Below, in pieces: positions 682 to 22,968 of a stretch of DNA of 64,000 nucleotides. The stretch's first letter is position 1, and each line of letters starts with the position of its first letter. A program made the position numbers and the translations under genes. The stretch is from NCBI GenBank assembly GCA_951406725.2, contig OX597842.1, forward strand, positions 6,758,001 through 6,822,000. Reading direction: 5' to 3'. The DNA comes from Octopus vulgaris (taxonomy: Eukaryota). Below the pieces are notes generated by a model, which was not told where the DNA came from, made no database searches, and was given only the letters and a program-made list of their open reading frames with translations.

Positions 682-1976
682 GTATGTATATATATACATA
701 TATGAGCTGTGTATATATGGAGATCGTTTTCTATTTTACTTTGTGAATTCATACCTAAGAATGATATCCATATGTAGGGAGAAATATCCCTACAAAATAG
801 AAATGTCTGGGAAAAAAACCTAAACAGTTGATTGCACTTATGGCCATCTTCAAATGCTGTTTATAAGGTGTTTTGTATTAATATCAATGTCATCCTTCCT
901 TTCACAAGAATTATGCCCATAACTGAACTCAACCCTTATAAACATGCATTAATAAGCATTAGTATTTCAGTTAGTTTTAGAGCAGTTAGATTAGCTATTT
1001 TCTATTCAGTTATATTCACCCCACCCGTTATGTTAATTACACCCTTACTTGTGATATTTCCCAATACCGTTCAAATACATTTTCTGATGTTAAGAAACCT
1101 TAACTCCCTACCTAGGAGTATCAGCTATGCACATAATGTGAATGCTTGAATGATTCCATAGATATAACACTGCACCTTATAACACTACTATAAGTGGCCG
1201 CTGCAGACTATTGCTTTGAAATGAAGGCATATTGTTCACTTGTTTCAGGATTGTGAACTGACAAAATATATATATATATATATATATATCCATCTGGTTA
1301 TCTGCCTCTCTCTCTCTGTGTGTGCATCAAGGAAAGTGTTAGTGTATTTGTTCTGCTTGTAGAATGCAAAATTTTATTATTATTATTATCATTAATTTGA
1401 TAGTCTTAATATTATTGCATGATTTCCTTGCACAACTGAACATGTTTCTGCATACTTTGGATATGTACAGTGTTTTGGTTTTTAATTTTCGTTTTCCATT
1501 GTAACAATGATAAACACAGCTACAACAACAAAAACAATCACAACAATAACAACAACAAACAATGACGAAAACAACAAAACTTCCAAAATACAAAAATAAA
1601 TATACATAAAATATAACAAAATATCAAATGACAAATTTAATACTAATATTACAAATAATATGACTATTATGTGAAATTACTGCATTTCTAAATAGAAATA
1701 ATTGCTCATTACAATAGAATACAAAAGAAAATTATTGAATGCAATATTCCTAGTCTAATTTCAAATAGAAGCTGAAAAGCATTAAACCACAGTTTTCAGT
1801 TTGTCTAAAGATTTATGAAGAAATAAATATTTCATTTGATATACATCTCATATATGTTTGATGATTGATATTCAGTGTTAAAAGCCGATATTATGAAACT
1901 TGAAGTAGCCAGATAGATTGATAGGCCTGTAGAATGTATAGGCCAATTGTTATTATTTGTCAGAGGAAGTATAGAC

Positions 1977-4350: not shown

Positions 4351-5767
4351 GTATATAATATATATATAATATATGTATATAATATGTATATATATGTATA
4401 TAATATATGTGTATAATAGATATATAATATATGTATATAATATATATGTGTGCATAATATATATATATATATATGTACATGTATATAATATATATATATA
4501 ATGTGAGTATAATATATATATGTATATACAATATATATATGCTACAAATAACCCCATTGACTTTTAATACAACTGGGACAAACTGTATGGTATAGCTTGT
4601 GTAGGATACACAATGCCTTAAAAATAAATAAGGTGAGATGGTCATGATTCGATTGTCTTTAAATATAGGGCTGATTCATCAAAGTGAATCTCTGTGGGCT
4701 AAATAGCAATAACAACAACTGCATCAAAAAACAAGAGTGGCTGTTCCTCTCATAATAATCCCTTTTCTATAAACCCACAACCAAACTATCACCCTTGTGG
4801 CTGTTTTTTCCCTTCCACTACTATCGAGCCAACTACTCCCCCTTCGATTCCAACTGACTAGAACCAGCCACCTATTCCTTATTTCAAACCTTAGCTAAAG
4901 ATTTGGGCCCATTTATCTACATTGCCACCATAGTTGTGTTGCTGTTGTTGTTGTTGTTTAACCCTTAGGTCATCCCCATGACACACCAGTCCTATATCAA
5001 AGACAATGAAGATGTAAATCTAAAATATTTGCTATTTCAAATTTAAGGATTACATCAAATTAAATATTCACATCCCTCCTTCAATTATTAAAGAAAGTAA
5101 GGGGGGAATTTGAAAGAGAGATTTCCCTACTTTTTTTTCCTTGATAGCAAATATAGGAGACAACTCCAGGCATATTTCAGCCTTTCTGGACTTCATCAGA
5201 GAATCATAGATTTCACTGTAAAAGCTCAATTATTGATAGTAAAATCAATAAATATATGCAGAATATTATATACAAGGGTTGGTGAAATTCCAGAAATATT
5301 CAAAGACTAAATTGCTCAGAAAAGCCTTCTGCATTATCAAAATAGATAGTAGCTAATGGTAACTAAAAGAGAGGTTGGACAAGTTATATTAATTGCCTCT
5401 CATAACAGAAACCTCAATCAATTAGAAATTTAATGATATATATATATATATATATATCTGTGTGGATGAATAATGTAAAATAGGAAAAGGGCAAAGTCTC
5501 TCCTTTTTTGAAAAAGTGAGACAAATGCAAAGCCCATAAGGGTCATTCCAGAGATGCTAGTTGATTGATCCAGAGTTGAACATTAATATAAAAATAGATA
5601 ATCTTCATTCGCACATACATACATAGATACATAATGTGATATAAAGACAGTTTATATTAAAATAAAAAGTAGATCGAAACAAAGGTAGGAAAAATCTTGA
5701 GTAGGAAAATAAGTTGGGGGAACCACACAAGAGCATCATGCTGAAATATTTCGCTCCGTAAAGCTAC

Positions 5768-5879
5768 CTTCTTCTCTTCATCATCCTTCTTTTTCTTGCC
5801 ATCAAGAGTAGCAGCAACGAGGGCAAAGTACTGGATGACCTTTTTCGTGTTCTCAGTTTTACCAGCACCAGACTCGCCA
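5768..5879 (-). CDS. Mhc1: Myosin P-loop/loop-1 exon, variant B ([37 protein letters not shown])
   Basis: Acceptor CATCACTACAG|T GGC GAG TCT, donor AAG|GTAGCT. 112 nt, phase 2-0, Walker A motif. Confidence 0.95.
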
Positions 5880-6719
5880 CTGTAGTGATGTGGAGGGTTG
5901 TACAAAGTGTATACAAAGAGGGAGAGAGAGAGAAAGAGAGAGAGAATGTGTGAGTGATGGTGAGTGATTGCAACTGATTGTGTGTGACAGAGTATTAGAG
6001 TGTCAGATATATACGCACACATATGTATATGTATATGTATGTATAGTGGTGACACGTTAATTGAGAAAGTGAGACCACAACAAATATTTGTGGAATATGA
6101 ATTTTACTTACAACTTAATCACATTTTCACTACTTAATTTTAACACTTCTCTTTCCTTTTGATACTTGGAGATGAGAATTTTTAAGTAGTTAAATTGTGA
6201 GTTTAAGTTGTGAATTCATGAAATATATATGTATGAGACAATATATACAGTTGCATGGCAGAAGAGAGAGTAAGGCATTAATAGTTTTGTGAAAGACAAA
6301 AAAATAAACAGTTGCAAAATATTCCTTCTACAACAATAAAAACAATAATTGTAAGATTTGCAGCCACAATAATAATAATAATAACAATTTCATACACCAT
6401 TAATAACATCAATATTCATATCAACACCAATATATGTATATATAGAAAGAGAGAGAGAGAGGAAAAAAGAAAGAAAGAAAGAGAGTGAGACAGCTAGACT
6501 GAAATGCGTCAAATATGAAATTGCTTGACAATCAAATAGTCTTTCTATTTTTTCTAACTGTCAACAAGATGGAAGAGGGTTCGCTTTTTCATTAAGGCAT
6601 CTTTATAAATATGCATTACCATCTATAATGAAATTGTTTGGATATGAAGAATTTTCTTGGTAGAAATATGTAGTTTGAATGAAGATTTGTACATTTGTTG
6701 TGTATTAGCATATTGGTTT

Positions 6720-6915
6720 GAAATTTTGGGTAAAAAGCCAGCAATTCTGGGGATTGGGGTTAGTCAATTACATCGACCCAACTGCTCAATTGGTCCTTAT
6801 TTTATCAACCCCAAAAAGGTGAAAGGCAAAGCCAACCACAGCAGAATTTGAATTCAGAATGTAAAAATGGGTAAAACGCTATTAAGCAATTTGCTTGATG
6901 TGCTCACAATTCTGC
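6720..6915 (-). mobile_element. SINE family C copy (degenerate)
   Basis: Reverse complement resembles 16508-16725 (GGCAGAATT...CTGAATTCAAATTCTGC...TTTGCCTTTCA). Confidence 0.55.
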
Positions 6916-7892
6916 CTTTTTTATGTATATATAATAAAGGATAAAATCGCTAAAAATTTTATCAGTGACCAACATGTAAAAGAGACCTATTAAGGTAAAT
7001 TCATATATAGAGGCTTAAAAGGGCATAGAGGGTTCCATACCTACAGGAATGGAACCCGCTATGCCCTTAATTATAATTGTATTTTATGCTATTATAGATC
7101 TGTTTGTATATATGTATGTATGTATACTTTTTTATATGTAATTGCCAAACTTTACTTTTTCCATCCATTGTTATTAATAGATTTAACATCACTACCTTTT
7201 AAACAAGCAATTCCCATTTAGCACATGTTCTTCAAAGGTTTTGATATATATTGAATAGTTATCAATTTTTTTTTTTTTTGGTGAGAAAACAAAATGAAAA
7301 ATAAAATAATGAAAAGAAAAATATAGAAAGACAAAGACAAAAAAGGAACAGTGAATCACCTAAACATTCATTTGTCTTTTCATATGACATGCTTCTAAAT
7401 TTCAGAAGCTCATGTTTACTTCTGCTTACCATTTAAGATTTTACAAACCTAATTTTATATTCACATTCCTTATATATATATATATATAAAAGAAAATGAG
7501 ATGACAGAGGTAAAATGGTTACATTATAAACTCCATCGACTTACAGCTGTTTCTGCTGCTAGATGCAGTGCACTCATGTTGGGTGCCTATAAGCAACTGT
7601 TCCCTTTTCTTTCTTTGTATTTCAGTTTTTATTTTCATTATTTTCTTTTGTTCTGTTTTGTTTTCTTTTTTCCCACAAATAAATTTCTTTTCAACATAAA
7701 TAATTTTTCAGATAATGGCATTTTCCCATTCCCCACGTATATTGTATATGTGTATATATATATATATATATAGACACATACAAACACACATTAGCAAGAT
7801 GAAAACAATTGATTTGGCCTTAAAAAAAGCTACACAGAACAAACATTGCACATTTTTGAGAGCCAAATATTGCTGATGTGTAAGACACTTAC

Positions 7893-8004
7893 AGCTCTTG
7901 TGCCGTCAGCCTTCTCTCGCTTTTTTTCCTGTGTGGCAGCAACTTCGGCAAAATACATTATCACTTTCTTGGTACTTTCAGTTTTGCCTGCCCCAGATTC
8001 TCCA
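7893..8004 (-). CDS. Mhc1: Myosin P-loop/loop-1 exon, variant A ([37 protein letters not shown])
   Basis: Acceptor ...AATGTAG|T GGA GAA TCT, donor GCT|GTAAGT. 112 nt, phase 2-0, open frame with an intact Walker A. Not annotated as such in the ORF track. Confidence 0.92.
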
Positions 8005-13451: not shown

Positions 13452-13479
13452 GTGATCAACATGGACTGGTTTTCACGAT
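13452..13479 (-). CDS. Mhc1: Myosin heavy chain 28-nt exon (D-RENQSMLI-T), absent from the ORF track
   Basis: TTTCTTCTTTTCTACTCACAG|AT CGT GAA AAC CAG TCC ATG TTG ATC AC|GTGAGT. Phase 1-2 links the previous exon exactly to the P-loop exons. Confidence 0.96.
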
Positions 13480-22770: not shown

Positions 22771-22968
22771 CTCACAGGTAGCGTCACATTTGACAGTGAC
22801 TTCATCTCCCTTGGTACTCTGGATTTCTGCGGACAGGAAACCTTCCTTGGGGTCTGGCACCCAGCAGTTCTTCTTGCCGTCAAATGCCTTGGTGGTCAGC
22901 TCCAACAGCTTGTTCCTAGGCAGACACAGAAACTCCATATCCGGATCATTGGGATCGTAACCGGCCAT
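22771..22968 (-). CDS. Mhc1: Muscle myosin II heavy chain, first coding exon (N-terminus/SH3-like domain: MAGYDPNDPDMEFLC...VTVKCDATCE, 66 codons)
   Basis: ATG in ACAATGG context. The peptide AFDGKKNCWVPDPKEGF is typical of molluscan muscle myosin. Ends at a phase-0 donor GAG|GTAAAT (22770-22769). Confidence 0.97.

What the first reader, a model, noticed from the sequence alone, without database searches (positions are those of the whole stretch)
5768..8004. Duplicated, mutually exclusive P-loop/loop-1 exons in the myosin motor domain
Seen: two paralogous exons, both exactly 112 nt and phase 2-0, each with intact splice sites and a Walker A. A is [37 protein letters not shown] and B is [37 protein letters not shown]. 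Joining A to B reads TGG CGA GTC TGG TGC TGG TAA, an immediate stop, and skipping both shifts the frame, so exactly one can be used. Established: loop 1 tunes ADP release and ATPase rate, and alternative splicing of this region is known in bivalve and squid muscle myosin. Inference: one gene yields kinetically distinct motors. From memory, the TESTKKVIMYFA…RA signature of exon A resembles the bivalve smooth/catch-type variant, which would make it an ancient molluscan exon pair kept in a cephalopod.
Basis: partly seen in the sequence, partly recalled or inferred. Interest (0 to 1): 0.8.

Follow-up and report, generated by a model that had tools for sequence, protein, structure and literature searches.

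The report
Octopus myosin keeps catch-type exon
An octopus muscle myosin gene carries two tandem, frame-matched copies of the exon for its ATP-binding loop, an arrangement already described in scallops and snails, and the first copy is likely the version that scallops use in their slow holding (catch) muscle.

Summary
Exons A (8004-7893) and B (5879-5768) are both 112 nt, phase 2-0, AG/GT; A+B stops at the 7th codon of B, and skipping both shifts the frame. The pair is the published 'cluster-2' of muscle myosin mutually exclusive exons (PMC3912159), known from bivalves, gastropods and some arthropods; that survey's readable files name no cephalopod genome. B is the exon of solved squid isoform A. 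A is kept in Octopus bimaculoides (35/37 aa) and shares order, a serine at residue 10 and a non-KK end with molluscan 2a exons, the scallop catch-muscle type. This orthology is moderately supported: the profile test agrees, the tree is unresolved. Beyond the window the same gene has three cluster-3 exons, pairs at clusters 8 and 11, and a catchin first exon. No read-level evidence for splicing of A was obtained and no kinetics were tested. Verdict: a real, new member of a known kind. The open point is whether octopus uses the catch-type exon in a specialised holding muscle, against the published view that cephalopods lack tissue-specific myosin isoforms.

The parts
7893..8004 (-). Alternative exon A (cluster-2, 5' copy, 2a type): Walker A, following helix and loop 1; Ser at residue 10; ends Thr-Arg-Ala; weak acceptor, consensus donor
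   Evidence: 35/37 aa identical to the O. bimaculoides model P0002; best PDB match 2os8
5768..5879 (-). Alternative exon B (cluster-2, 3' copy, 2b type): Asn at residue 10; ends Lys-Lys; 91-nt AG-free zone and branch-point-like motifs 119-127 nt upstream
   Evidence: best PDB match squid isoform A 3i5f, E 4e-13 over all 37 aa
5880..7892 (-). 2,013-nt GT-AG intron between A and B; too long for steric exclusion; no pairing with the flanking introns above chance once simple repeats are masked
13452..13479 (-). 28-nt constitutive exon just before the cluster (phase 1-2); strong pyrimidine tract
   Evidence: same small exon in locus L025
14579..14735 (-). Constitutive motor-domain exon, 52/52 aa identical to P0002
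21478..21624 (-). Second coding exon (ends approximate, from tblastn)
22771..22968 (-). First coding exon with the start codon (3' end approximate); 62/66 aa identical to P0002

Best explanation
Exons A and B are two diverged tandem copies of the P-loop/loop-1 exon of the octopus muscle myosin heavy chain gene, only one of which can be kept in a readable message, and they are likely the same pair (cluster-2, exons 2a and 2b) that bivalves and snails inherited from a common molluscan ancestor. Shown: the anatomy, the frame rule, conservation of A in a second octopus, and that B followed by the first cluster-3 exon matches the solved squid isoform. Inferred: B is the default exon of the main muscles. 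A has a weak acceptor and is probably a regulated, minor choice. Messages with both or neither are probably removed by nonsense-mediated decay. Inferred from scallop: a motor with A, probably joined to the third cluster-3 exon as in the O. bimaculoides model, would hold ADP longer and cycle more slowly, through the Asn-to-Ser change just after the Walker A motif and a different loop-1 sequence, not through loop length.
For: Frame rule. Old duplication under constraint: over the first 24 codons pS 0.90 against pN 0.10, and 14 of 21 identical residues use different codons. A conserved in O. bimaculoides at 35/37 aa, in the range of four other exons compared (94-100%), and joined there to the same upstream exon and to the third cluster-3 exon. 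Both exon types occur in 8 of the 13 taxon groups whose isoforms were listed. The 2a-like type has Ser at residue 10 in 7 of those 8, and in none does it end Lys-Lys; the 2b-like type has Asn and ends Lys-Lys in 8 of 8. The order 2a-like then 2b-like is seen independently in locus L025, ORF P0001 and Mytilus model P0154, as in the window. Profiles: A scores +4.0 bits towards 2a, B -7.0; held-out pairs were ordered correctly 9 of 9 times. Squid 3i5f equals B plus the first cluster-3 exon. PMC3912159 gives catch = 2a and striated = 2b for scallops; Argopecten head structures, several named striated, carry the Asn type. The gene also keeps a catchin first exon.
Against: No spliced read through A was seen; P0002 is a database gene model whose basis I did not see, and it lacks the loop-2 exons, so it is imperfect. 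The tree of 26 exon peptides is unresolved (1 of 23 inner branches supported). Plain pairwise scores over 26 residues are mixed: A is nearer 2a in 5 of 8 groups, B nearer 2b in only 4 of 8. A's profile margin (+4.0) is just under the lowest held-out 2a value (+4.5). I sorted the reference exons into 2a and 2b myself using the same marks, so the counts of marks are partly circular, and L025 was found with a pattern that required the Ser. Mytilus and Potamilus 2a-like exons have Asn, so the Ser is not what defines catch muscle. Published cephalopod work found every isoform in every muscle sampled (PMC4757648).
Confidence: 0.75

Rival explanations
1. The pair is functional, but it arose by a separate duplication within cephalopods or octopods, and the likeness of A to bivalve 2a is convergent.
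For: Unresolved tree and mixed pairwise scores; only 37 residues, 14 of them a variable loop; equal 112-nt lengths, whereas most other molluscan pairs differ in length.
Against: Synonymous sites are saturated. Three separate marks agree with the molluscan pair: order, residue 10 and the exon end. In the tree A's nearest rows are 2a-type and B's are 2b-type. Neighbouring clusters 3, 8, 11 and the catchin exon are all retained as in other molluscs.
Confidence: 0.13
2. A is a silent relic: kept readable by chance or slow decay but never spliced, so the gene makes only B-type motors.
For: Weak acceptor: pyrimidine fraction 0.45 against 0.91 for the upstream exon, with a competing AG 7 nt further upstream. 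The solved squid isoform uses B, and the squid isoforms are reported to differ only at cluster-3 and the tail (PMC3912159). No read-level evidence here.
Against: No stop or frameshift despite saturated synonymous divergence from B; two conservative changes only against O. bimaculoides; a consensus donor; inclusion in an independent gene model.
Confidence: 0.07
3. A is spliced at a low level in all muscles alike and has no tissue-specific role, so it tunes nothing at the level of an organ.
For: Four cuttlefish and six octopus isoforms were all found in all muscles studied, and the minor squid isoform was 5-10% everywhere (PMC4757648, passages). Across myosins loop-1 length predicts ADP release poorly (bioRxiv 10.1101/2019.12.16.878264, passages).
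Against: Those surveys sampled arm, tentacle, mantle, funnel retractor, fin and buccal muscle, not skin papillae, suckers, gut or vessels (PMC4757648). The gene can in principle make 2x3x2x2 = 24 internal combinations against six reported. This rival is compatible with the anatomy in the best explanation and disputes only the role.
Confidence: 0.35

Closest known systems
MXE cluster-2 of protostome muscle Mhc genes (Kollmar and Hatje 2014, PMC3912159): scallops, Crassostrea Mhc2, Aplysia, Biomphalaria, Lottia Mhc6, Daphnia, Ixodes
   Same: Same coded region (P-loop, helix, loop 1), two tandem exons, followed by a cluster-3, in a gene that also has clusters 8 and 11 and a catchin exon, the set given for Aplysia.
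   Different: No cephalopod gene structure is in that survey's readable text or files; the two copies here are of equal length; cluster-3 has three members.
Scallop catch versus striated myosin isoforms (2a+3b versus 2b+3a; Placopecten chain 2OS8/2OTG and Argopecten head structures)
   Same: A matches the 2OS8 chain at 21 of the first 23 residues, including the Ser, and ends Arg-Ala like three of four scallop 2a exons.
   Different: The loop itself differs (no Ala-Asn-Leu-Tyr; more charged). The octopus cluster-3 exons all have the Tyr-type motif, none the Phe-type of the scallop catch partner. No catch muscle of the bivalve kind is established in octopus.
Squid (Doryteuthis) myosin isoforms A, B and C, and the cuttlefish and octopus isoforms of Shaffer and Kier (seen only through PMC4757648 and PMC3912159)
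   Same: Squid isoform A uses the exon equivalent to B plus the first cluster-3 exon.
   Different: The reported squid variation is in cluster-3 and the tail. Whether any of the six O. bimaculoides isoforms uses exon A could not be checked, because those papers are not held.

Membership tests
Mutually exclusive exon cluster | Neighbouring paralogous exons with similar length, sequence similarity, the same phase and the same splice-site pattern | tested here: met
   112/112 nt, phase 2-0, AG/GT, 24/37 aa
Mutually exclusive exon cluster | Inclusion of both or of neither gives no intact protein | tested here: met
   Stop at the 7th codon after an A-B join; frameshift on skipping both
Mutually exclusive exon cluster | Transcripts exist with each exon alone | tested here: inconclusive
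   B type: solved squid protein. A type: only a database gene model of another octopus. No read-level result.
Mhc cluster-2 | Gene is the muscle class-II myosin heavy chain | tested here: met
   Motor and rod exons map in order over about 81 kb; the near-identical O. bimaculoides model's best solved match is squid muscle myosin
Mhc cluster-2 | Exons code the P-loop, next helix and loop 1, and lie directly before the exon(s) that end at switch 1 (cluster-3) | tested here: met
   same layout in L025
Molluscan exon 2a (scallop catch type) | 5' position in the pair and 2a-type sequence marks | tested here: met
   5' copy; Ser at residue 10; non-KK end; +4.0 bits towards the 2a profile; labels partly circular
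Molluscan exon 2a (scallop catch type) | Groups with 2a exons in a supported tree | tested here: inconclusive
   40 columns, 1 of 23 inner branches supported; nearest rows are 2a-type
Molluscan exon 2a (scallop catch type) | Enriched in slow or catch muscle, with higher ADP affinity and lower ATPase rate | not testable with these tools
   Needs tissue-resolved junction counts and kinetics
Catchin (myorod) first exon, outside the window | Own start codon in the rod intron, conserved C-terminal block ending Leu-Leu-Glu in phase 0, spliced to the last ~830 rod residues | tested here: met
   230-codon ORF at L012:1361-2050 (-); 21 of 22 relatives end their match at the same motif; junction matches the labelled catchin alignment of PMC3912159 Figure S3; 827-866 rod residues follow this site in four molluscan myosins. 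Expression not tested.

The most novel reading that the evidence does not exclude
Octopus has kept the whole bivalve catch-muscle option in its one muscle myosin gene, the 2a loop-1 exon and the catchin exon, and switches it on in specialised holding muscles such as skin-papilla or sucker muscle that earlier isoform surveys did not sample. Exon A would then be the molecular marker for the catch-like state reported in cuttlefish papillae, and cephalopods would have tissue-specific myosin isoforms after all.
Probability: 0.3. Interest if true: 0.62.

Novelty: new member of a known kind. Interest (0 to 1): 0.35.

Why it matters
As an exon pair it is ordinary: a named cluster known since the scallop work and surveyed in 2014. 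Its value is as a handle on an open question. Cephalopods are cited as animals that tune muscle speed by ultrastructure, not by myosin isoforms (PMC4757648), and the catch-like holding of cuttlefish skin papillae lacks a molecular marker (PMC6059360, which names a catch-specific myosin isoform as a feature of catch muscle). A conserved catch-type exon and a catchin exon give two specific junctions that can be counted in existing RNA-seq and single-cell data.

Tried and rejected
RNA evidence: the run search with exon A gave 'no RNA holder listed' (16 of 24 rows hold its words, none on record as RNA); it is not used as evidence either way, and no reads or contigs were laid, so splicing of A remains untested. 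Full-length cephalopod myosins did not appear in the three protein searches (5 of 14 candidates, best 120 of 7,809, 9 of 10), so squid and cuttlefish could not be checked for exon A; this is weak evidence only. The metagenome scan for Ser-type exons gave 2 loci: L025, a mollusc-type Mhc gene, and L024, an unrelated myosin, dropped. Mechanism of exclusion: steric hindrance rejected (2,013-nt intron); mixed spliceosome types rejected (all GT-AG). Docking-site pairing: the 25 longest of 1,618 inverted repeats are microsatellites, and after masking, the longest perfect matches between introns are 11-13 nt, at or one base above the shuffled range. The tree was uninformative. A role for the Asn/Ser residue in nucleotide binding: one paper search listed no paper naming the residue, so it stays a guess. 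Alternative tail exons were sought downstream with 54 molluscan tails and not found. No tRNA or Rfam match in the window; no Pfam match for the catchin-type exon. Papers not held: Shaffer and Kier 2012 and 2016, Hooper 2008, Nyitray 1994. Earlier findings of this scan: nothing on this place or sequence; four unrelated exon-pair notes.

Full report
Observation. A spans 8004-7893 and B 5879-5768 on the minus strand; both are 112 nt, flanked by AG and GT, and both complete a codon begun in the 28-nt exon at 13479-13452. The peptides are 24/37 identical and the DNA 70/112. A joined to B stops at the seventh codon of B. Either exon alone reads through each downstream option. Skipping both shifts the frame, although the stop was not reached within 94-99 codons for two of the three downstream options. 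A genome-wide search with A finds A, B and one weaker P-loop elsewhere.

The gene. Mapping molluscan myosins onto the window and 150 kb of adjacent sequence gives a complete muscle myosin heavy chain gene from the start codon at window 22968 to contig position about 6,699,540. Four other exons compared are 94-100% identical in protein to an Octopus bimaculoides model (P0002), so the animal is an octopod. Downstream of B, outside the window, lie three copies of the next exon (108, 93 and 93 nt, phase 0-0), two 88-nt loop-2 exons and two 79-nt hinge exons. In the 12.8-kb rod intron there is a 230-codon open frame with a phase-0 donor. It has 22 relatives, 21 of which end their match at the same motif, and its junction with the next rod exon matches the labelled catchin alignment in Figure S3 of PMC3912159.

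Is A alive? Between A and B synonymous sites are saturated while amino acids are held: pS 0.90 and pN 0.10 over the 24 alignable codons. A copy that old would not stay open if it were free to decay. A differs from its O. bimaculoides counterpart by two conservative residues, and that model splices it between the same upstream exon and the third cluster-3 exon. That is a gene model, not a transcript I saw, and it misses the loop-2 exons. No read-level result was obtained, so use of A is inferred.

Whose relatives are A and B? B's best solved match is squid isoform A over all 37 residues; the squid chain continues with the residues of the first cluster-3 exon. A's best match is the Placopecten chain 2OS8/2OTG. 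Isoform listings for 13 taxon groups showed both molluscan exon types in 8: three scallop genera, Mytilus, oysters, Haliotis, Physella and Babylonia. Placopecten, Gigantopelta, Mactra and Sinanodonta showed one type, and the nemertean Lineus two Asn-type exons (at most 15 members were listed per cluster). Using one pair per group plus L025, the 2b-like exon has Asn at residue 10 and ends Lys-Lys in 9 of 9; the 2a-like exon has Ser in 8 of 9 (Mytilus has Asn; L025 has Ser by construction) and never ends Lys-Lys (one terminal residue was trimmed from four segments). The window's A has Ser and ends Arg-Ala; B has Asn and ends Lys-Lys. The 2a-like copy lies first in L025, P0001 and P0154, as A does here. 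Profiles put A at +4.0 bits towards 2a and B at -7.0, with 9 of 9 held-out pairs ordered correctly. Against this, the labels were assigned by me from the same marks, pairwise scores are mixed (5 of 8 for A, 4 of 8 for B), and the tree is unresolved. Orthology is therefore likely, not proven.

How exclusion likely works. The A-B intron is 2,013 nt and B's branch-point-like motifs lie 119-127 nt upstream of B, so steric hindrance does not apply. All sites are GT-AG. No intron pairing above chance was found. A has a poor pyrimidine tract and a competing upstream AG whose use would be out of frame; B has a long AG-free zone. The simplest reading is regulated choice with B as default and decay of wrong products as a backstop. 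This is inference from the sequence and general knowledge of splicing.

What the swap would do. A and B give loops of the same length and similar net charge (+2 and +1 with a short cluster-3 exon); the first cluster-3 exon adds five residues. So cluster-2 changes sequence, including the residue two places after the Walker A threonine, and cluster-3 changes length. PMC3912159 states that loop 1 affects ADP release and that scallop catch and striated isoforms are 2a+3b+11b and 2b+3a+11a. A bioRxiv paper (10.1101/2019.12.16.878264) adds that loop sequence matters and that length alone predicts poorly. A slower, ADP-holding motor for A is an analogy, not a measurement.

Comparison with what is known. 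This is cluster-2 of PMC3912159, which places its origin at the base of protostomes and lists it for scallops, oyster, Aplysia, Biomphalaria, Lottia, Daphnia and Ixodes. For cephalopods it cites only squid isoforms differing at cluster-3 and the tail; 'octopus' does not occur in its text, and no cephalopod name occurs in its four readable supplements (the alignment file could not be read). PMC4757648 reports four cuttlefish and six octopus isoforms, all in all muscles sampled. Ten paper searches listed no paper whose title or abstract start describes cluster-2 or catchin in a cephalopod. The two most relevant papers (Shaffer and Kier 2012, 2016) are not held, so absence from print is not established, and a public gene model already contains exon A.

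What I saw of each paper. PMC3912159: parts 1-4 of 7 of the text, reference passages, supplements 1 and 3, part 1 of 2 of supplement 4, and a term search of all four. PMC4757648, PMC6059360, PMC12040844, PMC5963113, PMC3931073, PMC10370119 and bioRxiv 10.1101/2019.12.16.878264: passages only. The scallop kinetic papers of 1994-1998: titles in a reference list only.

Verdict. A real and correctly read feature, a new member of a known kind. Interest 0.35: the cluster itself is textbook for this gene family, but the retention of a catch-type exon together with a catchin exon in an octopus makes a specific, cheap test of whether cephalopods have a dedicated holding-muscle myosin.

Noticed in passing
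L012:1361-2050 (-); G000:C29:6719361-6720050: Catchin (myorod) first exon in the rod intron: 230 codons, Pro/Gln/Ala-rich start, conserved end block matching the labelled molluscan catchins. One review passage calls this protein specific to bivalve catch muscles (PMC12040844), though the exon is also reported in gastropods (PMC3912159). Expression untested.
   Followed up: partly
L009:9633-9740, 7489-7581, 5802-5894 (-): Three cluster-3 exons (108, 93, 93 nt), all phase 0-0, so the frame does not enforce their exclusivity. Their acceptors are A/C-rich and T-poor with AG-free zones over 147 nt, which suggests a different exclusion mechanism from cluster-2. Three such exons times two tails would equal the six octopus isoforms reported; this is arithmetic only, and the tail exons were not found.
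   Followed up: partly
L011:9447-9534 and 5529-5616 (-): Two 88-nt loop-2 exons (cluster-8). The O. bimaculoides model P0002 lacks both and the constitutive loop-2 exon before them.
   Followed up: partly
L013:2399-2477 and 1010-1088 (-): Two 79-nt phase 2-0 hinge exons (cluster-11); the second is far more diverged from other molluscs (best 38% against 65%).
   Followed up: partly
L025:2640-10600: A mollusc-type Mhc gene in a marine metagenome contig with the same cluster-2 order and four cluster-3 exons.
   Followed up: partly
protein P0212 (Lineus longissimus): A nemertean isoform with a second, Pro-rich cluster-2 exon that lacks the Ser mark, so the pair exists outside molluscs with different marks.
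   Followed up: no
G000:C2:24307605-24307781 and 24332045-24332128 (+): The next most similar myosin in this genome, probably the non-muscle class-II gene; one P-loop match only.
   Followed up: no
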